From assembly GCA_937872505.1 (NCBI GenBank), contig CALMTA010000137.1:132-64131 (forward strand): a stretch of 64,000 nucleotides of DNA, read 5' to 3'. This stretch comes from an uncultured Neisseriaceae bacterium (GTDB lineage Bacteria > Pseudomonadota > Gammaproteobacteria > Burkholderiales > UBA11063). Positions 626 through 28,972 of the stretch are shown here, piece after piece; the stretch's first letter is position 1, and each line of letters opens with the position of its first letter. Position numbers and translations under genes: made by a program. The notes beneath the pieces were generated by a model that saw only the letters and a program-made list of their open reading frames with translations, did not search any database and had not been told where the DNA came from.

Positions 626-635
626 ATTTATTAAA

Positions 636-1595: not shown

Positions 1596-1597
1596 TT

Positions 1598-1768: not shown

Positions 1769-1770
1769 TT

Positions 1771-2646: not shown

Positions 2647-2647
2647 A

Positions 2648-11887: not shown

Positions 11888-14746
11888 ATGAATAATATAA
11901 TTACACCTTGGGGAGAAATAGGATATATAGTATTTAAAAGAACATATTCAAGGAGACTAAAAGAAGACGATCCCAATAGTGAAACAGAAGAATTTATAGA
12001 TGTTATTAATAGAGAATTATTAGCTATATCTAAACAGTTAAAATTGAAATTAACTGATGATGAAATAGATTTTTATAGAAATACAAGATTATTATTAAAG
12101 TGGTCAGTAGCAGGAAGATTTATGTGGCAATTAGGCACTAAAACAGTTAATGATTTAGGATTAACAAGTTTACAAAACTGTGCTGGTGTAGTAGTAGATA
12201 ATCCTATAAGACCTTTTACTTGGGCAATGGAACTTCTAATGTTGGGTTGTGGTGTAGGCTTCAATATTCAAAAAGAGTATGTTTATCAATTACCTAAACT
12301 TAAGAAAAAAATAAAAATAGAAAGATTAGACACAAAAGATGCTAACTTTATATTACCAGACACACGAGAAGGGTGGGTCAAACTTTTGGGAAAAACATTA
12401 AAAGCACATTTTTATAGTGGAGAAGGATTTACTTATTCTACACAGTTAATTAGAAGTAAAGGAGCTGCTATAAAAGGATTTGGTGGATTATCAAGTGGTC
12501 CAGAAGAATTATGTAATGGCATTAATGATATTCATAATATTTTAAATAGTAGGTCTAATCAAAAATTAAGACCTATAGACTGTTTGGATATAATGAATAT
12601 TATTGGTTCTATTGTAGTAGCTGGTAATGTACGTAGGTCAGCACAAATAGCTATTGGAGATTATGATGATTTAGAGTTTTTAAAAGCTAAAAGATGGGAT
12701 TTAGGACAAATACCTAATTGGCGAGCAATGTCCAATAATTCTGTAGCTTGTGATAATATTGAAAATTTACCCATTGAGTTTTGGCAAACTTACGAACAAG
12801 GTGAACCTTATGGTTTGATTAATCTAAGATTAGCAAGATTAGTTGGTAGAACAGGAGAAACACAATATAGTGATAAAGATACAGTAGTTTTTAATCCTTG
12901 TTTTACATCAGATACAAAAATATTAACACCAGAAGGATATGTTGAAATAGGTAAAAATGTAGGTGAGTTAGAATTAATTAATAAAGAAGGTTTAATTGTG
13001 AATGGAAATATTTGGTCCAATGGTTTTAAAACTGTTATTGAAATACTTACTTCACAAAAAAATAAATTAAAATGTACTCCTGATCACATATTTATGTTAA
13101 ATGACGGTTCTGAATGTACTGCTATAGAATTATTAGGTAAAAGAATTATGCCATATTTTAGTATAAATGAAGAAATTAGTGAGTATACTAAATATGGTTT
13201 TATTCAAGGAGATGGTAATTTAACAAGGTTAAACTCTGAACCTCATAAAGGGCTTGAAATAAATATAGGTGAAAATGATTATGACATTTTTGAGTTATTT
13301 GACATTGAAAAAGAAGAAAATAAAAGAAGTTATTATACATCTGGATTTAATGAAATTTTAAAAATTTTAGGTTTTGACTCTTCTGTATTACCTATAAGAA
13401 GAATGCCAAATACTTTTTCGTTTTGGAGCAATAAAGATAAATTAATGTTTTTAAAAGGAATGTATTCTGCAAATGGCTCCATTATTAAAAATCATAGAAT
13501 TTCATATAAAACAGTTTCTCAAAAACTAGCATTAGAATTACAAGAGGCATTATTGCAATTTGATATATGTTCTTATATAACTATTAATAAGGAAAAAGAA
13601 GTTTTATTTTCAAACGGTAATTACTCTTGTAAAGAATCTTATGATATAAATATTTCTAAATATGATTCAATATTACAATTTGCTAAATTAATAGGATTTG
13701 TCCATAAATATAAAAATGAGTCTTTAAGAGAATTAATTTTAGCAAAATCTCCTAAAGTAATAAGTATTAAAGATGTTGGTTATCAAGAAGTCTTTGATTT
13801 TAACTTACAAGATGACACTCATTGGGGAGTTATAGATGGTTTAATAGCACATAACTGCTCCGAACAGTCTTTACACAATTATGAAACTTGTTGTTTAAGT
13901 GAAGTATTTTTACCTAATATAGAATCTTATGAAGAATTATTAAAAATATTAGAGATTACGTATAAAGTAAATAAACATAGTTTAGCTATATCATGTAATA
14001 TAAAGGAAACAGAAGAAATTGTTCATAAAAATATGAGAATGGGTATTGGAATGACTGGTATTTTACAAGCAACAGAAAAACAAAGAAGTTGGTTAAAAAA
14101 TGCTTATATTTGGTTAAGAGAATTTGATAAAATTTATTCTAAAGAAAATAACTTCCCAACAAGTATTAAACTTACTACTGTAAAACCGAGTGGAAGTCTT
14201 TCTTTACTTGCAGGTGTAACTCCTGGAATACATCCGAATCCTGCTGGTCCTTATTATATAAGGAGAGTTAGAATGGCAGCTAATTCTGTTTTAGTAAACT
14301 CTTGTCGAGAACATGGTTTTTTAACAGAGCATCAAATTAATTTTGATGGTAGTGAAGATAAATCAACTATTGTAGTTAGTTTTCCTTGTAAAGTTTCTGA
14401 AGATACTCCTATTGCAGCAAATTATGGATGGAAAGAACAAATAGAAATGGTTAGGAAAATTCAATCAGAATGGAGTGATAATTCTGTTAGTTGTACAATT
14501 TATTATAAAAAAGAAGATTTAGAAGATATCAAAGCATATTTAAAAACTTATTATGAAGATAACTTTAAAACATTATCTTTTTTATTATATCACGGTCATG
14601 GTTTTATACAAGCTCCTTACGAAACTATAGACAAGGAAACTTATGAAAAAATGGTTAGCACCATTAGACCTATTACCAGTATTAATGTTAAAGAAAAAGA
14701 TTTTAATATAGATGAATGTGAGAATGGTGCATGTCCTATTAAATAA
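11888..14746 (+). CDS. nrdJ: class II (adenosylcobalamin-dependent) ribonucleotide reductase, intein-containing
   Basis: VFKRTYSR, AGRFMWQLG, LQNCA, AGNVRRSA, NP[intein]CSEQ, ETCCLSE, TVKPSGS, C-terminal CENGACPIK. Confidence 0.93.
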   Translation: MNNIITPWGEIGYIVFKRTYSRRLKEDDPNSETEEFIDVINRELLAISKQLKLKLTDDEIDFYRNTRLLLKWSVAGRFMWQLGTKTVNDLGLTSLQNCAGVVVDNPIRPFTWAMELLMLGCGVGFNIQKEYVYQLPKLKKKIKIERLDTKDANFILPDTREGWVKLLGKTLKAHFYSGEGFTYSTQLIRSKGAAIKGFGGLSSGPEELCNGINDIHNILNSRSNQKLRPIDCLDIMNIIGSIVVAGNVRRSAQIAIGDYDDLEFLKAKRWDLGQIPNWRAMSNNSVACDNIENLPIEFWQTYEQGEPYGLINLRLARLVGRTGETQYSDKDTVVFNPCFTSDTKILTPEGYVEIGKNVGELELINKEGLIVNGNIWSNGFKTVIEILTSQKNKLKCTPDHIFMLNDGSECTAIELLGKRIMPYFSINEEISEYTKYGFIQGDGNLTRLNSEPHKGLEINIGENDYDIFELFDIEKEENKRSYYTSGFNEILKILGFDSSVLPIRRMPNTFSFWSNKDKLMFLKGMYSANGSIIKNHRISYKTVSQKLALELQEALLQFDICSYITINKEKEVLFSNGNYSCKESYDINISKYDSILQFAKLIGFVHKYKNESLRELILAKSPKVISIKDVGYQEVFDFNLQDDTHWGVIDGLIAHNCSEQSLHNYETCCLSEVFLPNIESYEELLKILEITYKVNKHSLAISCNIKETEEIVHKNMRMGIGMTGILQATEKQRSWLKNAYIWLREFDKIYSKENNFPTSIKLTTVKPSGSLSLLAGVTPGIHPNPAGPYYIRRVRMAANSVLVNSCREHGFLTEHQINFDGSEDKSTIVVSFPCKVSEDTPIAANYGWKEQIEMVRKIQSEWSDNSVSCTIYYKKEDLEDIKAYLKTYYEDNFKTLSFLLYHGHGFIQAPYETIDKETYEKMVSTIRPITSINVKEKDFNIDECENGACPIK
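12899..13855 (+). mobile_element. intein (319 aa) with LAGLIDADG endonuclease in nrdJ
   Basis: starts CFTSDTKILT, ends GLIAHN followed by +1 Cys; internal YGFIQGDG and FLKGMYSANG; removal restores FNPCSEQ. Confidence 0.92.
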
Positions 14747-14757
14747 ATATATAAACA

Positions 14758-15009
14758 ATGAAATTACATTCTTTTTTAGAAAAGAATAATTTAATAGACC
14801 ACGGTGAATTAGGCTTAATAATTAATTATATTTTGCCTGATTCACTACAAGGCTATTATTTTATAGTTAAAAATGTAGATTTATTAACAGAAGAAAAGTT
14901 AATAATTACAGTGTCAGATGAATTAGAGGATAAACCATTAAATTGTCAAATTACATTTGATATAACGGATAATGGTGATTTGGTTTATAATAATCATATT
15001 GAATTATAA
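14758..15009 (+). CDS. hypothetical protein
   Basis: 83-aa ORF. Confidence 0.5.
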   Translation: MKLHSFLEKNNLIDHGELGLIINYILPDSLQGYYFIVKNVDLLTEEKLIITVSDELEDKPLNCQITFDITDNGDLVYNNHIEL

Positions 15010-15121
15010 AGTTTAATTACAAATATTAAAATTTAAAATTATATTATGTTATTACCTTTAATAATATCAGTTATATTTTGTGCTGCTATAATGTTCTTGG
15101 CAAGCTTTATTAGTTCACATT

Positions 15122-15346
15122 ATGAAAATATTGACGATGACTTGGAAAAATAAAATAAAAGAAAATTGTGTATATAAATTAGGCAATGGTACATATAGTG
15201 GTCCAAAAGGAGCATTACAATATGGTGAAATTCTTGAAAATAATGCTTTTTCGGATATACAAATACAAGAAAATATAGCAATATCAGAAAATAATAATTT
15301 ACTAAAAGATAATGTTTATATAAAATTAATTGATTTAAAATCATAG
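15122..15346 (+). CDS. hypothetical protein
   Basis: 74-aa ORF directly before the glycan cluster. Confidence 0.4.
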   Translation: MKILTMTWKNKIKENCVYKLGNGTYSGPKGALQYGEILENNAFSDIQIQENIAISENNNLLKDNVYIKLIDLKS

Positions 15347-15348
15347 TT

Positions 15349-16185
15349 ATGAAAGTAGATGTAGTTATACATGTTTACGGAAAACCTTGGCAAACTTTAT
15401 GTACTTTAAAAAGTTTGATGCTATATAGTTCTGAACACATAGATAAAATATATTTTGTTACAGAGCCTAAACAACCTTATAACGAAAAAGTAGATTGGGT
15501 TATAGATTATTTTGATAATATTATTCAATATACTCCTATTAAATCTATTTTAATGAATATTTGTAAGAATGTAAATAACGAAATAGAAAGACACAGTATG
15601 TATTGTCAATATGCTTTAGAAAAAACAGATAAACAATATATCTTTGTAACTCATAATGATATATTGTATACTGATGATATTATTGGAGACATGATTAATA
15701 ATATAGAAGACAATATTGCTATAGGGGAATTAGGTCAATGTTGGAATTGTCCCGCTCAACAATTTTGTGGAGGAGGAGCTAAATGGAATAGCTGGAATCC
15801 TACAGAAGAAGAAATTAATCAAATTAAAGAAAAACTTCCTTACGTCAGAACAAGTTTAAATAACTTAACTCCTAATAAATTTAAACTAATGCCTGAATGT
15901 AGATTAAATGAGTGGGCTTGTTTAATTAATGTAGAGTTATCTAATAAAGAAACTTATCCTAATGGTAATACACCTTTTTTTGGAGAATTTCATGTTGATT
16001 CTGGCACTGCTTGGTTTAAAAGTTTATATTTAAAGGGATATAATTTTAAAGATTATAGAAAAAATTATAGTCATACTTATTGGTCTGATTTGTCAAATGG
16101 TTATCAAACTGTGTTAAAAGAAAATTATTATTGGAAAGCAGAACAAAAAGCTGAACAATATTTTAATGAAAACTTTAAAATTTAA
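15349..16185 (+). CDS. GT-A fold glycosyltransferase (family 2-like)
   Basis: N-terminal VDVVIHVY..P...LKSL; KQYIFVTHNDILY (DxD position). Confidence 0.6.
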   Translation: MKVDVVIHVYGKPWQTLCTLKSLMLYSSEHIDKIYFVTEPKQPYNEKVDWVIDYFDNIIQYTPIKSILMNICKNVNNEIERHSMYCQYALEKTDKQYIFVTHNDILYTDDIIGDMINNIEDNIAIGELGQCWNCPAQQFCGGGAKWNSWNPTEEEINQIKEKLPYVRTSLNNLTPNKFKLMPECRLNEWACLINVELSNKETYPNGNTPFFGEFHVDSGTAWFKSLYLKGYNFKDYRKNYSHTYWSDLSNGYQTVLKENYYWKAEQKAEQYFNENFKI

Positions 16186-16193
16186 AAATAATT

Positions 16194-16835
16194 ATGAATA
16201 ATGTACATGATATAACTAAAGATTTTGAAAAAATGTTAGGTGATTACACTAATGCACCTTATGTTATAACTCTTGATAATCAATCTAATGCTTTATTTTT
16301 AGCATTATACTATGAAAAAAATATAGCAAAAACAATTATAAATGATACAATAATAATACCTTCCAGGACATATCCTTCCGTCCCTTGTGAAATAATTCAT
16401 GCTAATTTAAAAGTGCAGTTTAAGAAAGTAACAGGTAAAACTTTAACTGGAGCTTATAATCTTGAAAATAGTAATGTATGGGATTCAGCATTAAGATTTA
16501 CTGCTGACATGTATATGCCTTTTACTTATATGTGTATATCATTTACTGGTCCTTATAAACACTTTAAATTAAGTAAAGGAGGTGCTATACTAACAGACAA
16601 TTATGATGCTTATTTATGGTTTAAACGTGCAAGATATAGTGGTAGAAGAGAGTGTTCTTACCATGATGACCATTTTGATATGTTAGGCTGGAATTTTTAT
16701 ATGATGCCTGAATTAGCAGCAAGAGGAATTTTATTAATGAATCAATTTTATAATATAGATGGTACTAAAAAAAATAATGAAGATTTAACACTACCTTATC
16801 CTGATTTATCAAAATTTGATATATATACAAAATGA
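16194..16835 (+). CDS. DegT/DnrJ/EryC1/StrS-like PLP-dependent sugar aminotransferase (short form)
   Basis: NALFLAL, IIIPSRTYPSVP, VWDSA, SFTGPYKH (PLP Lys), GGAILTD, GWNFYM. Confidence 0.85.
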   Translation: MNNVHDITKDFEKMLGDYTNAPYVITLDNQSNALFLALYYEKNIAKTIINDTIIIPSRTYPSVPCEIIHANLKVQFKKVTGKTLTGAYNLENSNVWDSALRFTADMYMPFTYMCISFTGPYKHFKLSKGGAILTDNYDAYLWFKRARYSGRRECSYHDDHFDMLGWNFYMMPELAARGILLMNQFYNIDGTKKNNEDLTLPYPDLSKFDIYTK

Positions 16836-17425
16836 TAAAAGCATTAATTGGCTATGGTGGACACGCTAAAGAAGTTATGAGACAAATGAATATAATTTTA
16901 CCTTGTTTTGTAAGTGATAATTATTTAACAAATGAAACTATACCATTGTCTAAATTTAATCCTGCTAAATATATAGTTATGATTGCTGTTAGTAATTCAA
17001 TTGATAGATATAATATTGTTAATCAGCTTCCTAAAGAGACTAAATATTTTACATGGATACATAATACAGCTTTAATTATGGATAATAATATTGAAATAGG
17101 TGACGGTAGTTTTATAGGGGCTTACTCTATATTAACAACAAATATAAAATTAGGAAATCATACAATATTAAATAGAGCTAATCATATAGGACATGATTGT
17201 ACTATTGGAAATTATTTTACTGCTTTACCTGGCTCAATTGTTTCAGGAAATGTTAAAATAGGTGATAAAGTGTCTTTAGGAACAAACTCTTCTATAAAAG
17301 AAAAAATAACTATATGTGATAATGTAGTTATTGGTTTAAATTCAGGAGTAGTTAAGAATATTTTGGAACCTGGTATCTATGGTGGAGTTCCTGTTAAATT
17401 ATTAAAAAATGCCTATATTCAATAA
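16832..17425 (+). CDS. PglD/NeuD-like sugar acetyltransferase (hexapeptide repeat)
   Basis: LIGYGGHAK, HIGHDC, left-handed beta-helix repeats, YGGVPVK. Confidence 0.9.
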   Translation: MIKALIGYGGHAKEVMRQMNIILPCFVSDNYLTNETIPLSKFNPAKYIVMIAVSNSIDRYNIVNQLPKETKYFTWIHNTALIMDNNIEIGDGSFIGAYSILTTNIKLGNHTILNRANHIGHDCTIGNYFTALPGSIVSGNVKIGDKVSLGTNSSIKEKITICDNVVIGLNSGVVKNILEPGIYGGVPVKLLKNAYIQ

Positions 17426-17915
17426 ACATAAACTTATTTTTATACATATACCTAAAACAGGAGGAAGTAGTGTGGAAAAGGCTTTTCTTAATAAAGAAGA
17501 TAAATCATTATTTTATAGTGAGACTTATTTTATAAATAATCATAGTCCTCAACACTCTACATATATAGAATTAGAAAAATTAAATTTATTGTTTGAAGAT
17601 TATAAAATATTTACTATTATAAGACATCCTTATGAAAGATTTATAAGTGAATATAACTATTTATATACTAAAAATAATTTAGAAGATATTAATAATTTTG
17701 CTAAAAAGTTTTTAGGCTCTTCTAAAAATAAATATAATTGGGATAATCATCACTTATCTTGCAGCGAATTTATAAAAGAATGTAAAAACATTAATATTTT
17801 AAGATATGAAAACTTGCAAGAAGATTTTAAAAATTTTATAGGATTTAATCTCTTAGAACACGAAAATAAAGGTAATAAAATAATAACATTAGTAAATTTA
17901 ACAAAAAAAAATTAA
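17409..17915 (+). CDS. sulfotransferase family 2 protein
   Basis: FIHIPKTGGSS (5'-PSB) and IRHPYERFIS (3'-PB). Confidence 0.85.
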   Translation: MPIFNKHKLIFIHIPKTGGSSVEKAFLNKEDKSLFYSETYFINNHSPQHSTYIELEKLNLLFEDYKIFTIIRHPYERFISEYNYLYTKNNLEDINNFAKKFLGSSKNKYNWDNHHLSCSEFIKECKNINILRYENLQEDFKNFIGFNLLEHENKGNKIITLVNLTKKN

Positions 17916-18001
17916 AAAACAAATATATAATACTTGGAAAGAAGATTTTATTAATTTTAATTATCAAAAATAAGTTATATAATAATGTATAAAATATAAA
18001 T

Positions 18002-18838
18002 ATGTTAAAATGTATTAATTGGGGCAAAACTTTAAGATTAGGTAACTGGCTTTTTTTATATGCTGGTTTAAATTATTTTAGCAGAAAAAGTAATAACTCC
18101 TTAGTTTTACCAGATTTTTATTTGTGGAATTATTTAGAAAATCCACCTGTTATAAATAACAATAAAGATTTTGATTTAGAACATTCTTGGAGATATTTTG
18201 AGTATTCTGATGAAGAAAAACAGTATCAAATAGATATTTTAACTAAAAATGCAGATAAAATAATTAATATTGTAATGTTTCCTTATTTTCAAACAGAAAA
18301 ATGGTGGAAAGATGAAGAAAATTATATTTTAAATCTTCTTAAATTAAAAACAGATAAAATAGATGAAATTAAACAAAAGTATAAAAATTTGTTTAATACT
18401 TCTAAAGAAACCGTAGCAATTTCAATAAGAAGAGGAGATTTTGTAAAACATGGTGCTTTTTATCAAATACCTGAAAGTTGGTATGAAAAAGCGTTAGATT
18501 CTAATTTTAAAGATTGTAATGTTATAGTTTTTAGTGATGATATAGATTGGTGTAAAAAATATTTTAAGCACAGAAATTTCAATTATGCAGAATGTAATAA
18601 TACTCATTCTTTAAAAGGCTATGAAAATAATCCAATGGAACAATTTATTTTAGCCATTTTATGTGATCATGCAATAATAGGTAATTCTACATTTTCATGG
18701 TGGATAGCTTATTATATAAATAAGTTTAATAATGGAATAATCATTCATACTGGTAAAAACTTAACTAACGAAACAGATAAAATTTATAAAGCAAATAACA
18801 ATTATTATCCTAAAAATTGGAAACTTTTTAATATATAA
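18002..18838 (+). CDS. alpha-1,2-fucosyltransferase-like (GT11) glycosyltransferase
   Basis: RLGNWLF, SIRRGDF, FSDDIDWCK, NSTFSWW. Confidence 0.85.
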   Translation: MLKCINWGKTLRLGNWLFLYAGLNYFSRKSNNSLVLPDFYLWNYLENPPVINNNKDFDLEHSWRYFEYSDEEKQYQIDILTKNADKIINIVMFPYFQTEKWWKDEENYILNLLKLKTDKIDEIKQKYKNLFNTSKETVAISIRRGDFVKHGAFYQIPESWYEKALDSNFKDCNVIVFSDDIDWCKKYFKHRNFNYAECNNTHSLKGYENNPMEQFILAILCDHAIIGNSTFSWWIAYYINKFNNGIIIHTGKNLTNETDKIYKANNNYYPKNWKLFNI

Positions 18839-18840
18839 AT

Positions 18841-19377
18841 ATGAAAATTAAAGAATTATTAGAACAGAGAATTTATAACACAGATAAGTTTACATCTCAT
18901 CAATATTTGAATACTTATGAAGAATTATTCGAGCCTATACAACATAATGTTAAAAATCTATTAGAAGTAGGTGTATTAAGAGGAGAGTCTTTAGAATTAT
19001 GGAAAAATCTTTTTACTAACGCTGAAATATATGGAGCAGAACTTGTATCATCTGAAGTAACAATAAAACAACAAGAAAGAATAGAAATATTTTATGGAGA
19101 TGCCTACAACAAAGATTTTTTAAATAATTTTAAAGATATAAAATTTGATATTATTATAGATGACGGCAGTCATCAGTTTGAACACATGGATTTCTTTTGT
19201 AAATATTATAAAGATTTATTAAATATAAATGGTATTATCATAGTAGAAGATATACCTGCTATGGATTGGGCTGAAAAACTTAAAAAGTCATTAAATTTTA
19301 AAGATTCTTTTATTGTTGATTTAAGACATTTAAATAATAGATGGGATGATATAATGCTTATTGGTAAAAATAATTAA
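18841..19377 (+). CDS. class I SAM-dependent methyltransferase (sugar O-methyltransferase-like)
   Basis: LLEVGVLRGES, FDIIIDDGSH, GIIIVED. Confidence 0.85.
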   Translation: MKIKELLEQRIYNTDKFTSHQYLNTYEELFEPIQHNVKNLLEVGVLRGESLELWKNLFTNAEIYGAELVSSEVTIKQQERIEIFYGDAYNKDFLNNFKDIKFDIIIDDGSHQFEHMDFFCKYYKDLLNINGIIIVEDIPAMDWAEKLKKSLNFKDSFIVDLRHLNNRWDDIMLIGKNN

Positions 19378-19409
19378 CAAACTATTTAAAAGTTGATTAA
19401 AATAAACAA

Positions 19410-21113
19410 ATGATTAAAATATTAGCCTATTACAATAAAATGGTAGGTAGTCATTATCATAGATTACATGTTCCTTTAGAAAATCTTAAAGATAAGTATG
19501 ACATTACTATAGTTGATTCTATAAAAACAGATACTTGGGAAAATTTTGATATATTTATATATAACAGATATGTAAATTTACCAATATATAGTTTAAATCT
19601 ACTAAAAAAAAAATTTGGGTTTAAAATTATAATGGATATGGACGATAAAGTCACTATACCATTTTCTCATTATATGACTAAACTTTATGATACTCAAGCC
19701 ATACCTGAAAAAATAATATTGCACTTAAAAAACGCTGACTATGTAATATGTTCTACTGAATTATTAGCAGATAATTTAAAAAAATATAACAAAAATGTTG
19801 TAGTTATACCTAATGCTATAGATTTTTCAATTGATCAATTTAAATATAAAGAAAAAAAACAGAGTGATAAATTAAGAATAGTTTATCCTTGTTCTTTGAG
19901 TCATGAAAAAGATGTAAGGTTACTTGAGCTTTCTTTTAAAAAATTAGCTCAAGATATAAATTTAAAAGATAAGTATATATTTACTTTAGCGGGATACAGT
20001 GACTTTAATAATAAAAGTAAGCTTATATGGGATAATATGGTAAAAGTATTTAAATTAAGTGGTTCTTATAATATTATACCTAATAAAACAGTATTTGATT
20101 ATATGGAACATTATGATAATCAAGATGTTTGTATAATTCCTTTAATAGATGATTCGTTTAATAGAATGAAATCTGTTTTAAAATTAAATGAATCAGGAGC
20201 TAAAAAATTAGCTGTTATAGCTTCTAATGTACCTCCTTATGATAAAGAATCAGACTATTTTTTACCTGTTGACAAATCGGTAGATTGGTATAATCATGTT
20301 AAATATTTAATAAATAATCCAGAAGAAGTAAAAAATTATGCTAATAAGCTTTATGAATATAATAAAGAGAATTATGATATTAATGTGATTAATAAATTAA
20401 GAATAAATTTATTCGACAATGTTGTTAAATATAAAAAAGAAGAAAGTTTTAAATATAAAATAATTTCTATTACTTATGATACGCAGCAAATTACTGAATA
20501 TGATACATATTTTAATACTATTAATAGTGTGGCTCAAAAAAGTTATTTATTTGAATATAATCCTATAATAGATATTATAGATAATAATAAGTATAATATA
20601 AATTCTTATGATTATTTAGGTATTTTTAGTTGGAAGTTTGCTTTTAAATCTAAAGTTTCTAATATAGAAATTAACGATCATATAGACAATAACTATGATG
20701 CTTATGGATTTAATGCTCCTTTATTTAAAGATGGTAAAGATTACTTTACTCAAAGCAATAAATATCATCCTAACTTATTAAACATTATACGTATATTGTG
20801 TGAGGAAATAGGTATAAAATATACGGATAGTCCTAAATATGCTGTGTGGTCTAATTTTTTTGTAATGAGAACAGAATTATATAAAGATTATATTAATACT
20901 TATGTAAAACCTATTATAAATTTAATGGAAAATAAGTATAAAATTTTAGTATATAAAGATGCTAAATATGGAGGATTAACTAAAGAAAAATTAAAAGCTT
21001 ATACAGGCTTAGATTTTTACACATATCATACATTTATTTTAGAAAGACTAATTAGTCTATATTTACATAATAATCCTCAAATAAAATTTAAAAGTTGCAT
21101 TGGAAAGAAATAA
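19410..21113 (+). CDS. GT-B (family 4-like) glycosyltransferase fused to a second glycan-related domain
   Basis: YHRLHVP, IIMDMDD, VVVIPNAID, KSVLKLNESG..AVIASNV; C-terminal NFFVM...HTFILERL domain. Confidence 0.8.
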   Translation: MIKILAYYNKMVGSHYHRLHVPLENLKDKYDITIVDSIKTDTWENFDIFIYNRYVNLPIYSLNLLKKKFGFKIIMDMDDKVTIPFSHYMTKLYDTQAIPEKIILHLKNADYVICSTELLADNLKKYNKNVVVIPNAIDFSIDQFKYKEKKQSDKLRIVYPCSLSHEKDVRLLELSFKKLAQDINLKDKYIFTLAGYSDFNNKSKLIWDNMVKVFKLSGSYNIIPNKTVFDYMEHYDNQDVCIIPLIDDSFNRMKSVLKLNESGAKKLAVIASNVPPYDKESDYFLPVDKSVDWYNHVKYLINNPEEVKNYANKLYEYNKENYDINVINKLRINLFDNVVKYKKEESFKYKIISITYDTQQITEYDTYFNTINSVAQKSYLFEYNPIIDIIDNNKYNINSYDYLGIFSWKFAFKSKVSNIEINDHIDNNYDAYGFNAPLFKDGKDYFTQSNKYHPNLLNIIRILCEEIGIKYTDSPKYAVWSNFFVMRTELYKDYINTYVKPIINLMENKYKILVYKDAKYGGLTKEKLKAYTGLDFYTYHTFILERLISLYLHNNPQIKFKSCIGKK

Positions 21114-22162
21114 TCAAAATACCTTATATACAAGAACAGATATATAATTATTATATTCCTAATTGTTATTTAACAGGTAAGCCTTTTAAATCTCCATTTA
21201 GAAAAGATAATAATCCTTCATTTAGTATATTGAAAATAGGTAGTTACTATAAATGGGCTGATTGGGGTACAAATGAAAAAGGAAATTGTTTTGATTTTGT
21301 TGCTAAATACTATGGATTAAATGTTAATAAACAATTTAATCTTGTTTTAAAAGCTATAGTGAAAGATTTAAATTATGAACATTTATTTAATACAGATTCT
21401 AAAGTTTTAATTAATTTTATTAAAAATAATGTTCAACTAAACAAAGAATTACATACTATGTATTCTGCTGCTAATAAAGTAAGTTCAGTTAAATTAAAAT
21501 ATAATAAAAAACCTTTTAATCAAAGTGAAATAGATTATTGGAAATCTCAAGGATTAATAAATATAGATACTTTAAAATATTTAAACATACATTCTGTAAG
21601 TAAAGCTTATATTATTATTAATGATTATGTTAAAATGTTTTATAACTATAATGATTATAAATTACACTCTAACGATGAAAATATTAAAAAATTATATTAT
21701 TGTTTTGCATATAATTATGATAATAAATATTTAAAAATTTATAGACCTTATTATATTGATAAATGGAAAAGTACAGTGCCTTTAAATTTAATTTGTACTA
21801 AAACATTATTTGGCAATGATAATTTAATTATAACTAAGGCTAAAAAAGAGCAAGTTCATTTATTAGATATTCAAAGTTATATGATTGATAAATTTGATAT
21901 ACTGCCTTTGAATAATGAAATTACTTTTCCTCATGATTTTATTGAAAGTATTAAAGATAATTATAAAAAAATTATATTATGGTTAGATAATGATAATATA
22001 GGAATTTTTAATATGAAAAAATGGGCAGAACAACATAATTTAACAATGTTTTATAGTAAAAATTTTAAAAACATTACTGATCAATATTCAAATTTATATA
22101 GTATTAATAGCGATATGGCTAAAAATAATTCATTACTAACAATAAAAAACTTATTACAATAA
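21095..22162 (+). CDS. DNA primase (crAss-type)
   Basis: SPFRKDNNPSFSI, WADWG..GNCFDFV N-domain; TOPRIM-like LWLDNDNIG. Confidence 0.8.
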   Translation: MHWKEIIKIPYIQEQIYNYYIPNCYLTGKPFKSPFRKDNNPSFSILKIGSYYKWADWGTNEKGNCFDFVAKYYGLNVNKQFNLVLKAIVKDLNYEHLFNTDSKVLINFIKNNVQLNKELHTMYSAANKVSSVKLKYNKKPFNQSEIDYWKSQGLINIDTLKYLNIHSVSKAYIIINDYVKMFYNYNDYKLHSNDENIKKLYYCFAYNYDNKYLKIYRPYYIDKWKSTVPLNLICTKTLFGNDNLIITKAKKEQVHLLDIQSYMIDKFDILPLNNEITFPHDFIESIKDNYKKIILWLDNDNIGIFNMKKWAEQHNLTMFYSKNFKNITDQYSNLYSINSDMAKNNSLLTIKNLLQ

Positions 22163-22169
22163 TATAATT

Positions 22170-22712
22170 ATGTTCAAAAGCAATGAAGAAAAGTTCTTTA
22201 ATATGTGGTGCAAACAACTCAAAGAATTAGATTATATAATAGATTATTTTTATCAGCCTGAAACTTTGCAAATTACCCCTAAAGCTGAATTATGTTTAAA
22301 TATTAATAAAAAAAATAAATGTTATTTTTTATTACATCCACTGACATATACATATGATTTTAAAATAATATGGAATATAAAGGCTAAAGATGTATTTTAT
22401 AATAATATAGATAATGAATATTATAAAAATAATTGTTATTTTAAAACTAAAGAAGATATAAGCTATATAGATGTAAAAGGAGAATATACTAGAAAAAATA
22501 GAGTTACAGATATATCTTATCCTATTTTACAAAAAATATTATATCATTATAGTAATTTTTATGTACAAAAAATAGTTCCTATAAAATTATTTAAAGATAC
22601 ATTCGCACCCACAGAGTATTTACTAAATAATAATATTTATAAAGTAGGTACTAAAAAAGGGACAAACAAATCAAACTTATTAAATTTAGATGAATACACA
22701 AGAAGTAAATGA
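22170..22712 (+). CDS. PD-(D/E)XK-like nuclease (DUF1064-like)
   Basis: F.S.EE, YTYDF, YIDVKG. Confidence 0.6.
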   Translation: MFKSNEEKFFNMWCKQLKELDYIIDYFYQPETLQITPKAELCLNINKKNKCYFLLHPLTYTYDFKIIWNIKAKDVFYNNIDNEYYKNNCYFKTKEDISYIDVKGEYTRKNRVTDISYPILQKILYHYSNFYVQKIVPIKLFKDTFAPTEYLLNNNIYKVGTKKGTNKSNLLNLDEYTRSK

Positions 22713-22914
22713 ATTATCTATTCATATATCTATGAATTTATTAGTATTTTTAGCTGAAAAAGGATTATTAAGACATAATCAAATATATGATACTATAACA
22801 GAAATGGACAGTAATACTGTTACAAAAGAATATACTAATGAATTTAAAGCAATGATTATGGGTGCAGCAGTTGTTATTAAAAACACATTAACCGACAAAT
22901 ATGAAATTGATTGA
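22690..22914 (+). CDS. hypothetical protein
   Basis: 74-aa ORF. Confidence 0.45.
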   Translation: MNTQEVNELSIHISMNLLVFLAEKGLLRHNQIYDTITEMDSNTVTKEYTNEFKAMIMGAAVVIKNTLTDKYEID

Positions 22915-23215
22915 AACTTTTACATTAGATAAAAATGGTTTAAAATATTTAATGGCTTATTTAGATGAAAAAATTGTGGCAACAAGTGTTAAAGCTTTTT
23001 TTAAAGAAGATATTGTTAATTCTTTACATTATTCTGCTACGCCATATACAGAAAAAGATGTAGAATATTTTATAGATAATATAAGATTGTTTGAAATACC
23101 TAATGTTATAGGAGTTTCTATTAAATATTTCTTAGAAAGAATTATTGTTTATTTTGAAGATTATATTTTAGAGTTTGTTAATGACGAGATTTTTTTATAT
23201 GATATTAATAATTGA
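22901..23215 (+). CDS. hypothetical protein
   Basis: 104-aa ORF. Confidence 0.5.
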   Translation: MKLIETFTLDKNGLKYLMAYLDEKIVATSVKAFFKEDIVNSLHYSATPYTEKDVEYFIDNIRLFEIPNVIGVSIKYFLERIIVYFEDYILEFVNDEIFLYDINN

Positions 23216-23924
23216 TACAGATACTATTATATATTCTATAGCTGTATTAGATTTAGATTTAAAAAGTGTTATAGAAATTTTTGACAAAAAGATTAAGGGA
23301 TTAGTAGATAAATTTAAAGCAGATAATTATATATTAGTAATAGAAGGAAATAGAAACTTTAGAAATAAGTTTGATCCTAATTATAAAAAACATAGATCTA
23401 CAAATAAACCAATACATTATAAAGCTTTAAGACATCATGTTCAAAAACAATATAAATTAAATCATCATTTATCTATTAATGTGGAAACAGATGATGTATG
23501 TTCTATATTAGCTAATATATGCTTAGAAAAGAATATACAATGTGTTATTATACATACTGACAAAGATTTAAATCAAATAGTCGGTCAACATTATAATCCT
23601 AAAACTAAAGAAGAATATTATATAGATGAAAATAATAGCAAATATTTATTATGTTTACAGATATTAATGGGAGACCCTACAGATTCTAAAATAACTGGAA
23701 TATCGGGTATTGGTAAAACAAAAGCTTTTAATATACTAAATAATGCTTTAGACAATAATGTAGAATATATGACAGCAGTTTTTGATGAATTTATAAAAAA
23801 ATATAGTTATGATATAGGTGTAGAAAGATTTTATAATAGTTTTAACATAATTAAGTTATTAACAAACTATTCAAAAATAGATAAAAAATTAATAAAATTT
23901 TTAGATGGATTACAAAGCACCTAA
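23199..23924 (+). CDS. 5'-3' exonuclease / RNase H (T5/T7 gp6-like; likely start 23199)
   Basis: LIIDTD, YKKHR, VETDD, DKDLNQI, GDPTD..GISGIGKTKA (H3TH). Confidence 0.88.
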   Translation: MILIIDTDTIIYSIAVLDLDLKSVIEIFDKKIKGLVDKFKADNYILVIEGNRNFRNKFDPNYKKHRSTNKPIHYKALRHHVQKQYKLNHHLSINVETDDVCSILANICLEKNIQCVIIHTDKDLNQIVGQHYNPKTKEEYYIDENNSKYLLCLQILMGDPTDSKITGISGIGKTKAFNILNNALDNNVEYMTAVFDEFIKKYSYDIGVERFYNSFNIIKLLTNYSKIDKKLIKFLDGLQST

Positions 23925-24486
23925 TTATAATAGTTGGTTATTATTGCCTTTAACAAATATAAAAAATATTAATACCTTATACATTAACAATGTATTTGTA
24001 GGAAAAGAAAAAATAGAAAAGTTTCTCTATATTTTAATAAATAATGATGGTAGTGCAGAGTGTTTAGAATATATTAATACTTTAAAACAAGAGAAAAATT
24101 TTATTAAAAATGAAATAATAGATTATGATTTAATACTATTTAAATTTAAAATAAATTATAATGATGAAAATTATAGTCATTTAATAAATGCTAAATATAA
24201 TTTAGTCAGCTCTGACTATTCATTGTTATTAGCAGAAAGTTTAATTAGTAATTGTAAAAAATTATATAATGAAATATTATCTTTTTACAAAATATTAATA
24301 TATATCGTTAAAAATAGTGAACAATTATTTATAGATTATTATGAGTATAAACTAAAAATAGTTGATGTGAATTTTATAAATCAAATTAAAAGTACTGGCA
24401 TATATTTTTCTAATTTTAATGATAATAATTTTTTTAACGAATATTTAAAAATGAGTAATAAAACTATAAATGAATCTAAATTATAA
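23905..24486 (+). CDS. hypothetical protein
   Basis: 193-aa ORF. Confidence 0.5.
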   Translation: MDYKAPNYNSWLLLPLTNIKNINTLYINNVFVGKEKIEKFLYILINNDGSAECLEYINTLKQEKNFIKNEIIDYDLILFKFKINYNDENYSHLINAKYNLVSSDYSLLLAESLISNCKKLYNEILSFYKILIYIVKNSEQLFIDYYEYKLKIVDVNFINQIKSTGIYFSNFNDNNFFNEYLKMSNKTINESKL

Positions 24487-24859: not shown

Positions 24860-24861
24860 TT

Positions 24862-28719: not shown

Positions 28720-28746
28720 CAAATTTTTAATATAAATTATAATTAT

Positions 28747-28971: not shown

Positions 28972-28972
28972 T

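What the first reader, a model, noticed from the sequence alone, without database searches (positions are those of the whole stretch)
15349..21113. Phage-encoded glycan assembly and decoration pathway (seven contiguous genes)
Seen: GT2-like transferase, DegT-type aminotransferase, PglD/NeuD acetyltransferase, sulfotransferase, GT11 fucosyltransferase-like enzyme, SAM methyltransferase, and a GT4-like two-domain transferase, mostly overlapping or a few nt apart and running into the primase gene. Established: aminotransferase plus acetyltransferase pairs make N-acetylated amino-deoxy sugars, as in Mimivirus viosamine synthesis for fibre glycosylation. Inference: the phage builds a sulfated, methylated, fucosylated glycan on the virion, on its DNA, or on the host surface (receptor masking). 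No flippase, polymerase or signal peptides are evident, which favours a cytoplasmic acceptor.
Basis: partly seen in the sequence, partly recalled or inferred. Interest (0 to 1): 0.72.

Follow-up and report, generated by a model that had tools for sequence, protein, structure and literature searches.

The report
Swappable sugar-chain gene island in phage
A large uncultured AT-rich phage carries seven real, tightly packed genes for soluble enzymes that should build and decorate a short sugar chain; such islands turn out to be common and modular in environmental phages, and what the sugar chain is attached to remains unknown.

Summary
The seven genes exist at the stated coordinates and their family calls hold, with caveats. 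g1 is a GT-A glycosyltransferase by predicted fold only. g2 is a 213-aa "mini-DegT". g6 scores just under Pfam's cut-off. g7 is a GT-B domain plus an uncharacterised C-terminal domain.

The block is phage DNA. Identical or near-identical sequence occurs in contigs from at least three other public assemblies. All seven proteins lack membrane segments. About 90 kb of this phage encodes no flippase, polymerase or lipid-carrier enzyme.

The block is a mosaic island:
- g7 is a conserved anchor beside the primase gene.
- A sister phage is 81% identical from 9 nt before the g7 start codon onward, but carries different sugar genes upstream.
- A more distant syntenic phage fills the same slot between the ribonucleotide reductase and primase genes with other sugar enzymes.
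- The g2-g3 pair (mini-DegT plus a VioB/PglD-like acetyltransferase) occurs in more than 500 viral contigs. Mini-DegT forms 7,786 protein clusters at 75-86% identity and is absent from isolate genomes.

The acceptor is unresolved. I favour virion proteins (about 40%) over host envelope intermediates and DNA. No hydroxymethylase, TET/JBP enzyme or C5-methylase was found. Fucosylation and sulfation are family-level inferences only: the binned genome has RmlA/RmlB but no Gmd or APS kinase. This is a new variant of a known kind, of moderate interest.

The parts
11888..14746 (+). Left flank: class II ribonucleotide reductase with an intein. It marks the left side of the variable slot.
   Evidence: ORF. 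Pfam RNR-II_ins_dom, Intein_splicing and LAGLIDADG_3 on the identical gene in L084. A syntenic relative, L115, also has an RNR directly left of its sugar genes.
15349..16185 (+). g1: divergent GT-A fold glycosyltransferase, 278 aa. It belongs to a family with no Pfam model.
   Evidence: No Pfam, PHROG, NCBIfam or PDB sequence match. 333 homologue clusters, all unnamed or labelled hypothetical protein. AF2 model pLDDT 94.3. Foldseek matches GlfT2, SpsA, TarP, chlorovirus HAS and viral GT2 proteins at probability 1.0, TM 0.44-0.52. H102-N103-D104 are invariant and there is a conserved Cys cluster. Homologues sit next to g7 homologues in L112 and L113.
16194..16835 (+). g2: mini-DegT, 213 aa. A minimal PLP-type sugar aminotransferase-like protein that keeps the WDSA and SF..PYK(122) motifs.
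   Evidence: PF01041 at 41 bits, covering profile 26-98 only. PDB alignments place PYK on the PLP-lysine motif. 519 IMG/VR contigs carry a relative. 7,786 clusters of about 214 aa at 75-86% identity. 117 invariant columns. 622 clusters at 50% identity, nearly all 195-260 aa. Only 17 contigs among 185,579 species genomes, all MAG contigs.
16832..17425 (+). g3: NeuD/PglD/VioB-type N-acetyltransferase for 4-amino sugars, 197 aa.
   Evidence: TIGR03570 E 8e-38, full length. Best PDB matches VioB 7txp E 3e-24, then 4m9c and PglD. GHDC histidine retained. Directly abuts g2 in 50 of 81 loci.
17409..17915 (+). g4: short sulfotransferase, 168 aa.
   Evidence: PF03567 at 49 bits against a cut-off of 22. 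phrog_3347, E 9e-14. PKTGGS and RHPYERFIS motifs. A 47% identical homologue sits next to a g6-like methyltransferase in L144. Absent from the sister phage L114.
18002..18838 (+). g5: GT11 family glycosyltransferase (the alpha-1,2-fucosyltransferase family), 278 aa.
   Evidence: PF01531 at 74 bits against 23.9. phrog_2644, E 6e-32. SIRRGDF is visible in the translation; SDD and STFSWW were found. A homologue lies upstream of g7 (1.0-3.4 kb) in 10 of 57 g7-bearing loci and downstream of it in 2.
18841..19377 (+). g6: SAM-dependent methyltransferase of the Methyltransf_24 / CmcI-TylF type, 178 aa.
   Evidence: PF13578 at 25.9 bits against 26.3. phrog_21658, E 2e-15. EVGVLRGES motif. Homologues in L112 (37%) and L144 (57%).
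19378..19409 (.). g6/g7 intergenic spacer containing the recombination breakpoint that ends the variable cassette on its right side.
   Evidence: Sister phage contig L114 aligns at 81% nt identity over window 19401-30314. Nothing upstream of that point aligns.
19410..21113 (+). g7: the conserved anchor, 567 aa. GT-B (GT4-like) domain at aa 1-340. C-terminal domain at aa 345-567 (window about 20442-21113) of unknown family, possibly DUF4422-like.
   Evidence: phrog_7162, E 2e-58. Weak GT1/GT4 Pfam matches in 14 of 28 family members. The C-domain has no Pfam or PDB match. It also occurs as a separate 211-230-aa gene next to the GT-B gene in 35 loci. hhalign against DUF4422: E 4e-4, probability 34%. 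Conserved next to primase in L114 (84% overall; 85% N-domain, 83% C-domain) and L115 (about 55%).
21095..22162 (+). Right flank: DNA primase, overlapping the end of g7 by 19 nt.
   Evidence: phrog_12622, E 1e-22, plus a weak CHC2 zinc-finger match. The same arrangement is seen in L114 and L115.

Best explanation
The block is a phage-encoded glycan-building island made only of soluble cytoplasmic enzymes. It has three kinds of part.

(1) A conserved anchor, g7. It is a GT-B glycosyltransferase fused to an uncharacterised, possibly DUF4422-like, domain. It belongs to the phage backbone next to the primase gene.

(2) A pan-phage amino-sugar module, g2-g3. I infer that the mini-DegT enzyme aminates an NDP-4-keto-6-deoxyhexose taken from the host. 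The most likely substrate is dTDP-4-keto-6-deoxyglucose made by host RmlA and RmlB. The VioB/PglD-like enzyme would then N-acetylate the product, giving an NDP-4-acetamido-4,6-dideoxyhexose.

(3) Swappable elaborating and capping enzymes: g1 (GT-A), g5 (GT11), g6 (O-methyltransferase) and g4 (sulfotransferase).

Together they should assemble a short oligosaccharide of three to four sugars with N-acetyl, methyl and possibly sulfate groups on an acceptor inside the infected cell. Because g7 is constant while the rest is exchanged even between near-identical phages, I infer that g7 recognises the acceptor and starts the chain.

I think the phage's own virion proteins are the most likely acceptor (about 40%). 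That would give a strain-variable glycan coat, as in mycobacteriophages and giant viruses.

Shown here: gene content, family or fold assignments, modularity, restriction of mini-DegT to viruses, and absence of membrane machinery. Inferred: every substrate, the order of steps, and the acceptor.
For: - Genes and families.
- Phage origin: an identical stretch lies on contigs from other assemblies (ENA ERZ27240680 62 kb, ERZ794914 58.6 kb, NCBI GCA_035329365.1 93 kb). GC content equals the flanks.
- Soluble enzymes only: the highest 19-residue hydropathy in g1-g7 is 1.24. About 90 kb of the phage (C137 plus C100) encodes no multi-pass membrane protein.
- Anchor and cassette: L114 is 81% nt identical from window 19401 onward and unrelated upstream, where it carries a g3-like end, a GT2 fragment and a 222-aa methyltransferase. 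L115 has RNR, a 245-aa protein, a methyltransferase, a GT92-like gene, a 130-aa protein, then g7 and primase. L112 has g7-g1-g6-Methyltransf_21-g5 and L113 has g7-x-g1-x-g5.
- g2-g3 module: g3 directly abuts g2 in 50 of 81 loci. In other phages the pair sits with SDR dehydratase/epimerase, GT1, GT2, GT9, GT10-like, FkbM and Methyltransf_24 genes.
- Fusion proteins GNAT+miniDegT and GT1+FkbM+miniDegT exist.
- The precursor route is present in the binned genome: RmlB at 463 bits and RmlA at 469 bits, both over their cut-offs. The phage itself has no SDR enzyme.
- Precedents: mimivirus R141/L136/N-L142 make Vio4NAc, which is 2-O-methylated on fibril glycans. The Moumouvirus australiensis cluster includes sulfate-metabolism genes (PMC9614988). 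Mycobacteriophage capsid and tail glycosylation: Freeman 2023, as cited in PMC12619734.
Against: - No virion protein was identified or examined, and no capsid or terminase gene was seen in about 90 kb.
- The island, and g7-type modules in other phages, lie among replication and recombination genes (primase, exonuclease, RecA, NinG, DnaB-like, YqaJ) and not among recognisable virion genes.
- Mini-DegT lacks about 150 residues of a canonical DegT enzyme. Its structure model failed (pLDDT 49) and its activity is untested.
- The binned genome shows no APS kinase or Gmd above cut-off, so the sulfate and fucose donors are unexplained. The bin may not be the host.
- The g3, g6 and g7 family scores fall below curated cut-offs.
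Confidence: 0.45

Rival explanations
1. DNA hypermodification. The glycosyltransferases would build the oligosaccharide on a modified base of the phage genome to block restriction and other nucleases, as in the T-even phages and the phage clusters that glycosylate 5hmC or 5-hydroxycytosine.
For: - The island lies in the replication module and overlaps the primase gene.
- g7-type modules elsewhere sit beside NinG, DnaB-like, YqaJ, RecA and exonuclease genes.
- phAPEC8-like phages carry four glycosyltransferase genes directly upstream of primase/helicase, a DNA methyltransferase and PolA.
- The window also has a dNMP kinase homologue.
- The literature shows mono- to trisaccharides on phage DNA, and DNA glycosyltransferases that resemble LPS and teichoic-acid enzymes (bioRxiv 10.1101/2023.12.21.572611; PMC13326640).
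- Island variability would also fit an arms race with restriction systems.
Against: - C137 and C100 (about 90 kb) carry no thymidylate-synthase-family hydroxymethylase or hydroxylase, no Tet_JBP dioxygenase and no C5 DNA methyltransferase.
- Only 2 of about 165 related loci (2.5 Mb in total) have a ThyA-like gene within 10 kb.
- g7 shows no sequence match to any solved structure, T4 alpha- and beta-glucosyltransferases included.
- The two papers read here mention no aminotransferase, acetyltransferase or sulfotransferase.
- A truncated ThyA-like ORF on the small low-GC contig C286 could not be linked to the phage.
Confidence: 0.15
2. Host envelope remodelling. The soluble phage enzymes would act at the inner face of the membrane on host lipid-linked O-antigen, capsule or protein-glycosylation intermediates. 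The altered glycan would then be exported by host machinery, masking receptors, blocking superinfection or keeping progeny from sticking to debris.
For: - All the enzyme families are typical of bacterial surface-polysaccharide loci.
- The phage relies on host nucleotide-sugar supply: it has no SDR dehydratase of its own, and RmlA and RmlB are in the bin.
- Many O-antigen glycosyltransferases are likewise soluble or peripheral. This last point rests on established knowledge and was not tested here.
Against: - About 90 kb of the phage has no initiating phosphoglycosyltransferase, flippase, polymerase, ligase or Gtr-type membrane protein.
- Mini-DegT and the g7 C-domain are essentially virus-restricted. 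Mini-DegT keeps 75-86% identity across 7,786 clusters and many different phage contigs. That fits a phage-intrinsic acceptor better than host-specific ones.
- The phage looks lytic: no integrase was noticed in the window. This was not searched exhaustively.
Confidence: 0.2
3. Another cytoplasmic target. The enzymes would make a decorated small molecule or nucleotide-sugar derivative, for example a decoy, an inhibitor or a sink for host sugar nucleotides. Alternatively they would glycosylate host proteins or RNA as part of host takeover.
For: - The genes sit among early or middle genes next to counter-defence genes: Gad1, PARP, and rIIA/rIIB.
- No acceptor could be identified.
Against: - Three to four glycosyltransferase domains plus capping enzymes point to an oligosaccharide on a defined acceptor.
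- I found no precedent for this in the literature searched.
- Island-type variability suggests a product that is exposed and under selection.
Confidence: 0.1
4. Artefact: misassembled or mis-binned host polysaccharide genes, not phage genes.
For: - The contig sits in a bacterial MAG bin.
- The enzyme families are typical of bacterial surface-polysaccharide loci.
Against: - The same gene order lies between RNR and primase on contigs from other public assemblies. Syntenic variants exist in L114 and L115.
- GC content matches the phage flanks.
- Apart from weak g3- and g7-like matches at 25-35% identity on other contigs, homologues are absent from the rest of the MAG.
- Mini-DegT was found almost only on viral contigs.
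Confidence: 0.01

Closest known systems
Giant-virus glycan gene clusters: Mimivirus R135-L143 with R141 4,6-dehydratase, L136 aminotransferase and N-L142 acetyltransferase; the Moumouvirus australiensis 12-gene cluster (PMC9614988)
   Same: Both are virus-encoded sets of soluble enzymes. Both use aminotransferase-plus-PglB/PglD-type acetyltransferase logic to make a 4-acetamido-4,6-dideoxyhexose. Both include several glycosyltransferases and a methyltransferase. The moumouvirus cluster also has sulfate-related genes. Cluster content varies between related viruses.
   Different: This is a tailed phage of bacteria. It has no 4,6-dehydratase of its own. Its aminotransferase has 213 aa against 352 aa for L136. 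The acceptor is unknown, whereas mimivirus glycans are shown to sit on fibrils. The enzymes here are not close homologues of the giant-virus ones: the best structure match for g3 is bacterial VioB.
Mycobacteriophage virion glycosylation (Freeman et al. 2023, Cell Host Microbe 31:1216). I did not read the paper; I know it only through the citation in PMC12619734.
   Same: Phage-encoded glycosyltransferases act in the cytoplasm on the phage's own capsid and tail proteins. The glycans shield the virion.
   Different: No virion protein or glycan was examined here. The island lies in the replication module. The host and phage type differ, and the enzyme set is richer (amino-sugar module, sulfotransferase, GT11).
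Phage DNA sugar-hypermodification clusters: T4 alpha- and beta-glucosyltransferases; 5hmC-glycan clusters (bioRxiv 10.1101/2023.12.21.572611); arabinosyl-5-hydroxycytosine clusters of RB69 and DLP3 (PMC13326640)
   Same: GT-A and GT-B enzymes that resemble LPS-type enzymes, sequential glycosyltransferases giving up to trisaccharides, and a location among DNA-metabolism genes (between DNA polymerase and rIIA in Straboviridae).
   Different: Those clusters are defined by a thymidylate-synthase-like hydroxymethylase or hydroxylase, or by a C5-methyltransferase plus a 5mYOX dioxygenase. None was found here. The two papers read mention no aminotransferase, acetyltransferase or sulfotransferase.
Glycan cluster of Flavobacterium phage vB_FspM_immuto (MW353175, genes 90-102)
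   Same: It has the same mini-DegT (215 aa, 75% aa identity) and NeuD-like pair, at 70.8% nt identity over 1.1 kb. These lie in a run of glycosyltransferase and methyltransferase genes. The phage is cultured.
   Different: It is a 160-kb myovirus with a larger cluster that also has a full-length WecE-type DegT and an SDR epimerase. It has no homologue of g1, g4, g5 or g7. The cluster's function has not been studied, as far as I could find.
Bacterial Wzx/Wzy-dependent O-antigen and capsule loci, and the Campylobacter pgl pathway (PglF-PglE-PglD)
   Same: The same enzyme families and the same keto-sugar to amino-sugar to N-acetyl-sugar chemistry. Gene content is hypervariable and cassette-like.
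   Different: There is no phosphoglycosyltransferase, flippase, polymerase or oligosaccharyltransferase, and no membrane protein at all. The aminotransferase is a virus-only minimal form.

Membership tests
DegT/DnrJ/EryC1/StrS sugar aminotransferases (PF01041) | Score above the Pfam gathering cut-off | tested here: met
   g2 scores 41.1 bits against a cut-off of 19.8.
DegT/DnrJ/EryC1/StrS sugar aminotransferases (PF01041) | Full fold-type-I architecture of about 360 aa: large domain plus C-terminal small domain | tested here: not met
   g2 has 213 aa and only profile positions 26-98 of 360 align. PDB alignments cover two short stretches. About 50 internal residues and the whole C-terminal domain are missing, judged from the alignments. 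The short length is a family trait: 622 clusters at 50% identity, nearly all 195-260 aa.
DegT/DnrJ/EryC1/StrS sugar aminotransferases (PF01041) | PLP-binding lysine (SF...K) and the preceding D/E-x-A motif | tested here: met
   WDSA at 96-99 and SFTGPYK at 116-122 align with the matching motifs in 3bb8 and 7kz3. D97 and K122 are invariant in 28 homologues.
DegT/DnrJ/EryC1/StrS sugar aminotransferases (PF01041) | Aminotransferase activity on an NDP-4-keto sugar | not testable with these tools
   The structure model was too poor to use (pLDDT 49). This needs an enzyme assay.
NeuD/PglB/VioB sugar N-acetyltransferases (TIGR03570) | Full-length match with N-terminal domain, left-handed beta-helix and catalytic histidine | tested here: inconclusive
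   E 8e-38 over positions 4-202 of 202, but 130 bits is below the curated 160.8. VioB 7txp E 3e-24 and PglD E 2e-17. The GHDC histidine is retained.
Sulfotransfer_2 (PF03567) PAPS-dependent sulfotransferases | Score above cut-off plus the 5'-PSB and 3'-PB PAPS-binding motifs | tested here: met
   49.4 bits against 22. PKTGGS at residue 15 and RHPYERFIS at residue 72. At 168 aa it is short for the family. The donor supply is unexplained.
Glycosyltransferase family 11 (alpha-1,2-fucosyltransferases, PF01531) | Score above cut-off and the conserved motifs (xRRGDY/F, SDD, S-x-FSWW) | tested here: met
   74 bits against 23.9. SIRRGDF is visible in the translation. SDD and STFSWW were found.
Glycosyltransferase family 11 (alpha-1,2-fucosyltransferases, PF01531) | Use of GDP-L-fucose as donor | not testable with these tools
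   The binned genome has no Gmd above cut-off: best 65.8 bits against 415. The donor is therefore uncertain.
Methyltransf_24 / CmcI-TylF type sugar O-methyltransferases | Score above cut-off and the SAM-binding motif | tested here: inconclusive
   25.9 bits against 26.3. phrog_21658, E 2e-15. EVGVLRGES and DGSH motifs are present.
GT-B glycosyltransferases (GT4-like: Glycos_transf_1, Glyco_transf_4) | Pfam match above cut-off | tested here: inconclusive
   g7 scores 21.5 and 19.1 bits, both below cut-off. Of 28 family members, 14 match Glycos_transf_1, best E 4e-8. phrog_7162 glycosyltransferase, E 2e-58. No E-x7-E motif was found.
GT-A / GT2 glycosyltransferases | GT-A Rossmann-like fold with an acidic metal-binding motif | tested here: inconclusive
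   The fold criterion is met for g1: pLDDT 94, Foldseek probability 1.0 to GT2 structures, but TM only 0.44-0.52. There is no sequence-family match. The candidate motif is the invariant H-N-D at 102-104, not a canonical DXD.
DUF4422 (PF14393), for the g7 C-terminal domain | Detectable profile similarity | tested here: inconclusive
   No Pfam match at E up to 5 in 14 members. hhalign of A4 against two DUF4422 domains gives E 4e-4, probability 34%, over 62 C-terminal columns only.
Phage DNA sugar-hypermodification gene clusters | A ThyS-like hydroxymethylase/hydroxylase, or a C5-methyltransferase plus a 5mYOX (TET/JBP) enzyme, in the phage and usually within 10 kb of the glycosyltransferase | tested here: not met
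   No PF00303, PF12851 or PF00145 match on C137 or C100. tblastn with ThyA found hits in 2 of about 165 related loci. The phage genome may be incomplete.
Wzx/Wzy- or ABC-dependent surface polysaccharide loci; Gtr-type seroconversion modules | Initiating phosphoglycosyltransferase, flippase or transporter, polymerase or ligase; that is, multi-pass membrane proteins | tested here: not met
   g1-g7 have no hydrophobic segment. C137 and C100 carry only four ORFs (62-249 aa) and one 2,755-aa ORF with 1-3 hydrophobic segments each, and no multi-pass membrane protein.
Virion-glycosylation systems (mycobacteriophage type) | Glycan shown on capsid or tail proteins, dependent on the phage glycosyltransferases | not testable with these tools
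   No virion data exist, and no virion genes were recognised in about 90 kb.

The most novel reading that the evidence does not exclude
Environmental tailed phages share a virus-only toolkit for making their own glycans. Its core would be a minimal 214-aa PLP sugar aminotransferase (mini-DegT), which lacks the C-terminal domain and about 50 internal residues of every characterised DegT enzyme. It is under extreme purifying selection (7,786 clusters at 75-86% identity). It is paired with a VioB-like acetyltransferase and plugged into hypervariable cassettes of glycosyltransferase, methyltransferase and sulfotransferase genes. In this phage the cassette hangs on a conserved two-domain glycosyltransferase (g7). 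That enzyme would start a strain-specific, possibly sulfated, glycan coat on the virion. This would be the bacterial-virus counterpart of giant-virus fibril glycosylation.
Probability: 0.3. Interest if true: 0.75.

Novelty: new variant of a known kind. Interest (0 to 1): 0.5.

Why it matters
If phages of many lineages build their own variable glycans, that would add a largely unstudied layer to phage-host and phage-environment interactions: adsorption, shielding from defences or grazers, and stickiness to particles. It would also affect how "auxiliary metabolic" sugar genes in viromes are read.

Two concrete products come out of this window:
- Mini-DegT is a sharply defined, extremely abundant, virus-restricted protein family. 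It would be the smallest sugar aminotransferase if active, and it is a good enzymology and structure target.
- The anchor-plus-cassette architecture has a mapped recombination breakpoint at the g7 start. That makes the acceptor question testable by comparing sister phages.

A cultured phage, Flavobacterium phage immuto, carries the same g2-g3 pair and could serve as an experimental model.

On its own, this instance is one more member of a recurrent class of phage glycan islands. It is not a new kind of system.

Tried and rejected
- Structure of g2: the AF2 run with 28 homologues gave pLDDT 49, because the alignment is too uniform. The model was unusable and no fold search was made.
- hhalign of the mini-DegT alignment against immuto's full-length WecE: probability 0.5%. 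This was uninformative, and the motif mapping rests.
- Sequence searches of g1, g5 and g7 against PDB found nothing useful.
- The g7 C-domain had no Pfam or PDB match. There is only a weak DUF4422 lead.
- IMG/VR scans with single g7 and primase proteins found no relatives. Relatives were reached later through protein searches and an alignment.
- Walking the phage genome. C100 continues C137, but it holds only giant ORFs. The 1069-aa end protein is not on record. The 93-kb NCBI record is not held for whole-record searches. So the virion genes, and the roughly 3 kb missing from that record, were not seen.
- Linking the ThyA-like fragment on C286 to the phage failed: it occurs only on contigs of 2 kb or less and shares no end k-mer.
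- Host identity: cluster look-ups returned no names and there is no SusD in the bin. The host is left unknown. The PolA similarity to crAss-like phages (31-34%) is too weak to classify the phage.
- Sigma-70 promoter scan: 85 sites against 77 expected, which is uninformative.
- Misassembly or host contamination was considered and rejected.

Full report
**Observation.** The window is nearly all of contig C137 (64.3 kb, GC 23%). C137 is the longest contig of a 2.16-Mb, 316-contig MAG with GC 28.8%. All large ORFs are on the + strand and form a phage replication and host-takeover module:
- a dNMP-kinase homologue and an RlaP-like nucleotidyltransferase;
- a Gad1 anti-Gabija homologue;
- an intein-containing class II ribonucleotide reductase (RNR);
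- primase and a 5'-3' exonuclease;
- rIIA and rIIB, and a PARP-like gene;
- a 4,792-aa ORF and a fragmented PolA.

Between the RNR gene (11888-14746) and the primase gene (21095-22162) lie the seven ORFs of the finding, at the stated coordinates. They are separated by +8, -4, -17, +86, +2 and +32 nt. The last one overlaps the primase ORF by 19 nt. No terminator-like site lies in 14600-22300. GC content does not differ from the flanks.

**Family calls.**
- g2 matches DegT_DnrJ_EryC1 above cut-off, but over profile positions 26-98 only.
- g3 matches Hexapep and, over its full length, NeuD/PglB/VioB (E 8e-38, below the curated cut-off). Its best solved relatives are VioB (E 3e-24), 4m9c and PglD, and the GHDC histidine is retained.
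- g4 matches Sulfotransfer_2 above cut-off and has both PAPS-binding motifs.
- g5 matches GT11 above cut-off and has that family's three motifs.
- g6 matches Methyltransf_24 at 25.9 bits against a cut-off of 26.3, matches a PHROG methyltransferase (E 2e-15), and has a SAM-binding motif.
- g7 matches PHROG glycosyltransferase 7162 (E 2e-58) over residues 6-337, with weak GT1/GT4 Pfam matches.
- g1 matches no sequence family or solved structure. It belongs to a family of 333 clusters of about 277 aa with no informative name, labelled hypothetical protein where named. An AlphaFold2 model from 38 homologues reached pLDDT 94.3. Foldseek placed it among GT-A/GT2 enzymes at probability 1.0 but TM only 0.44-0.52. 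The matches include GlfT2, SpsA, TarP, chlorovirus hyaluronan synthase, and giant-virus and cyanophage GT2 proteins.

The caveats are that g1 is GT2-like by fold only, g2 is truncated, and g7 carries an extra domain.

**Phage DNA, not host DNA.** A 20.6-kb stretch including the whole block is 100% identical on a 62-kb contig of ENA assembly ERZ27240680. Flanking genes with identical products lie on a 58.6-kb contig of ERZ794914 and on a 93-kb contig of NCBI GCA_035329365.1. MAG contig C100 continues C137 through a shared terminal 55-mer. It holds only giant ORFs: 1584, 865 and 2755 aa on one strand, then 3033 and 1069 aa on the other. Elsewhere in the MAG the seven proteins have only weak g3- and g7-like matches at 25-35% identity.

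**A mosaic island.** The block is not a fixed pathway.
- Proteins with the full g7 architecture form about 57 clusters.
- The closest relative (L114, ENA ERZ15184888) aligns at 81% nt identity from window 19401, which is 9 nt before the g7 start codon, to 30314. Upstream nothing aligns. There L114 carries the end of a g3-like gene (60% aa identity), a GT2 fragment and a 222-aa Methyltransf_24 protein. It has no g4 or g5.
- A more distant syntenic phage (L115, 75-kb contig) has RNR, a 245-aa protein, a TylF/Methyltransf_24 gene, a GT92-like gene, a 130-aa protein, then g7 (about 55% identity), primase (54%) and the same downstream order through rIIA, rIIB and PARP.
- Two further phages have g7-g1-g6-Methyltransf_21-g5 (L112) and g7-x-g1-x-g5 (L113), placed at the end of their replication modules.
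- Across 57 g7-bearing loci, a g5 homologue occurs in 12, mostly just upstream of g7. One locus has g6 (57%) and g4 (47%) side by side.
- In 35 loci the g7 C-terminal domain is a separate gene of about 223 aa, beside a GT-B gene of about 361 aa in most of them. The two are therefore partners that are sometimes fused.

Hence g7 is part of the conserved backbone, and the genes to its left form an exchangeable cassette.

**The g2-g3 pair as a separate, very widespread module.**
- A scan of IMG/VR found 519 contigs encoding a g2 relative. The best 80 are 75-83% identical over the full length and lie on contigs from 4.5 to 319 kb.
- The large protein collection holds 7,786 90%-identity clusters. 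The 120 best listed are nearly all about 214 aa and 78-86% identical to g2.
- In an alignment of 28 members, 117 of 213 columns are invariant.
- An exhaustive HMMER search of 50%-identity representatives found 622 clusters. Nearly all are 195-260 aa, so the short form is a family trait and not a truncation artefact.
- Among 185,579 species genomes only 17 contigs carry it. All are MAG contigs, from unrelated bacterial and archaeal phyla, and none is from an isolate. The family is therefore essentially virus-restricted.
- g3 homologues directly abut g2 in 50 of 81 loci.
- In other phages the pair sits with SDR epimerase/dehydratase genes (37 loci), GT1/GT4, GT2, GT9, GT10-like, Methyltransf_24, FkbM and adh_short genes, and in 15 loci with a full-length DegT as well.
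- The cultured Flavobacterium phage vB_FspM_immuto has this arrangement.

**What mini-DegT retains.** PDB alignments put WDSA (96-99) and SFTGPYK (116-122) of g2 on the acidic motif and PLP-lysine motif of DegT enzymes. The following GGAI...GWNFYMMPELAA region also matches. About 25 N-terminal residues, about 50 internal residues and the whole C-terminal domain are missing. Fusion proteins GNAT+miniDegT and GT1+FkbM+miniDegT support a role in amino-sugar and glycan synthesis. Frequent HNH or Endo VII ORFs upstream fit a highly conserved phage gene. The AF2 model of g2 failed (pLDDT 49), so whether this minimal protein is catalytically competent remains open.

**Mechanism (inference).** The phage has no SDR dehydratase on C137 or C100. 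The binned genome has RmlA (469 bits) and RmlB (463 bits), both over their curated cut-offs.
- The simplest route is: host dTDP-4-keto-6-deoxyglucose, then g2 transamination, then g3 N-acetylation, giving dTDP-4-acetamido-4,6-dideoxyhexose. That is the VioA/VioB or WecE/WecD logic, and the same chemistry as mimivirus R141/L136/N-L142 (PMC9614988).
- g7, g1 and g5 provide three glycosyltransferase activities. There would be four if the g7 C-domain is also a glycosyltransferase. It shows only a weak, partial resemblance to DUF4422: hhalign E 4e-4, probability 34%, 62 columns.
- g6 and g4 would cap the glycan with methyl and sulfate groups.
- "Fucosylated" and "sulfated" are family-level guesses. 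The bin shows no Gmd (best 66 bits against a cut-off of 415) and no APS kinase above cut-off, and the bin may not be the host (no SusD; no names returned).
- Because g7 is constant while the cassette changes, I infer that g7 recognises the acceptor.

**Acceptor.**
- None of g1-g7 has a hydrophobic segment. The roughly 90 kb of phage sequence encodes no multi-pass membrane protein. The glycan is therefore made in the cytoplasm, and the phage brings no export machinery.
- For DNA as acceptor, all known routes need a hydroxylated base. That base is made either by a thymidylate-synthase-like enzyme or by a C5-methyltransferase plus a TET/JBP dioxygenase (bioRxiv 10.1101/2023.12.21.572611; PMC13326640). 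None of these is on C137 or C100. Only 2 of about 165 related loci (2.5 Mb) have a ThyA-like gene within 10 kb.
- A truncated ThyA-like ORF on a 1.9-kb low-GC contig (C286) could not be linked to the phage.
- Against the virion reading, the island and g7-type modules elsewhere sit among replication and recombination genes: primase, exonuclease, RecA, NinG, DnaB-like and YqaJ. phAPEC8-like coliphages likewise carry four glycosyltransferase genes just upstream of primase/helicase. No virion genes were recognised in the sequence available.
- I therefore give virion proteins about 40%, host envelope intermediates about 20%, DNA about 15% and other targets about 10%. The remainder is unassigned.

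**Comparison and novelty.** Virus-encoded glycan clusters are known in giant viruses. Virion glycosylation is known in mycobacteriophages and DNA glycans in several phage groups. Notes from this scan describe at least eight similar islands in other uncultured phages, mostly next to virion genes, and two of them mention a miniaturised aminotransferase. Those notes are unchecked AI notes; I used them as leads only.

This instance is therefore a new variant of a known kind. It differs in four ways:
- its position in the replication module of a large AT-rich phage with N4- or crAss-like traits (PolA is 31-34% identical to crAss-like phages);
- the mapped anchor-plus-cassette structure;
- the presence of a sulfotransferase;
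- the quantified abundance, conservation and virus restriction of mini-DegT.

**Verdict.** The acceptor and the actual sugars remain to be determined experimentally.

Noticed in passing
window 8091-9086: Full-length homologue of Gad1, the anti-Gabija protein (PF25705, E 3e-84; phrog_20113).
   Followed up: no
window 11888-14746: Class II ribonucleotide reductase interrupted by an intein with a LAGLIDADG endonuclease domain. The syntenic relative L115 instead has a class I RNR (small and large subunits), also with an intein.
   Followed up: partly
MAG contig C100 (continues the window beyond 64000): The phage continues on C100 through a shared terminal 55-mer. C100 holds only giant ORFs: 1584 aa, 865 aa (Kinase-PolyVal domain) and 2755 aa on one strand, then 3033 aa and 1069 aa on the other. 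No capsid, portal or terminase gene was recognised in about 90 kb.
   Followed up: partly
MAG contig C148 compared with window 1-3000: A 59-kb contig with GC 33% in the same bin shares stretches of 85-96% nt identity with the start of the window. It is probably a second, related phage in the bin.
   Followed up: no
MAG contig C286 (1.9 kb, GC 25%): It carries a truncated thymidylate-synthase-family ORF (70 bits, RRLIITTWHP motif) next to a macro-domain-like ORF. It occurs only on contigs of 2 kb or less in two assemblies. Whether it belongs to this phage is unknown, and that bears on the DNA-modification rival.
   Followed up: partly
P0322, P0333, P0356, P0374 (mini-DegT relatives): Mini-DegT ORFs are repeatedly fused to, or run on from, HNH or Endo VII homing-endonuclease domains. 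This fits homing endonucleases targeting this very conserved gene.
   Followed up: no
window 15349-16185 (g1): The g1 family has a conserved cysteine cluster (C131, C134, C140, C184, C191; QCWNCP motif) inside a GT-A fold. It may be a structural metal site, which would be unusual for GT2-like enzymes.
   Followed up: no
L094 (Escherichia phage nieznany, NC_052659.1, 88806-91950): phAPEC8-like coliphages carry four adjacent glycosyltransferase genes immediately upstream of primase/helicase, a DNA adenine methyltransferase and PolA. Two of the four are about 30% identical to the g7 N-domain. I found no study of their function.
   Followed up: partly
whole MAG (G000): The bin has RmlA and RmlB but no APS kinase, no Gmd and no SusD above cut-off. 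Either the bin is not the host, or the sulfotransferase and GT11 enzymes use donors the bin cannot obviously make.
   Followed up: partly
window 3576-4634 and 28973-30112: An RlaP-like (RNA-repair type) nucleotidyltransferase. Also a PARP-domain protein, with PF00644 on the orthologues in L114 and L115. Both are conserved in the syntenic relatives.
   Followed up: no
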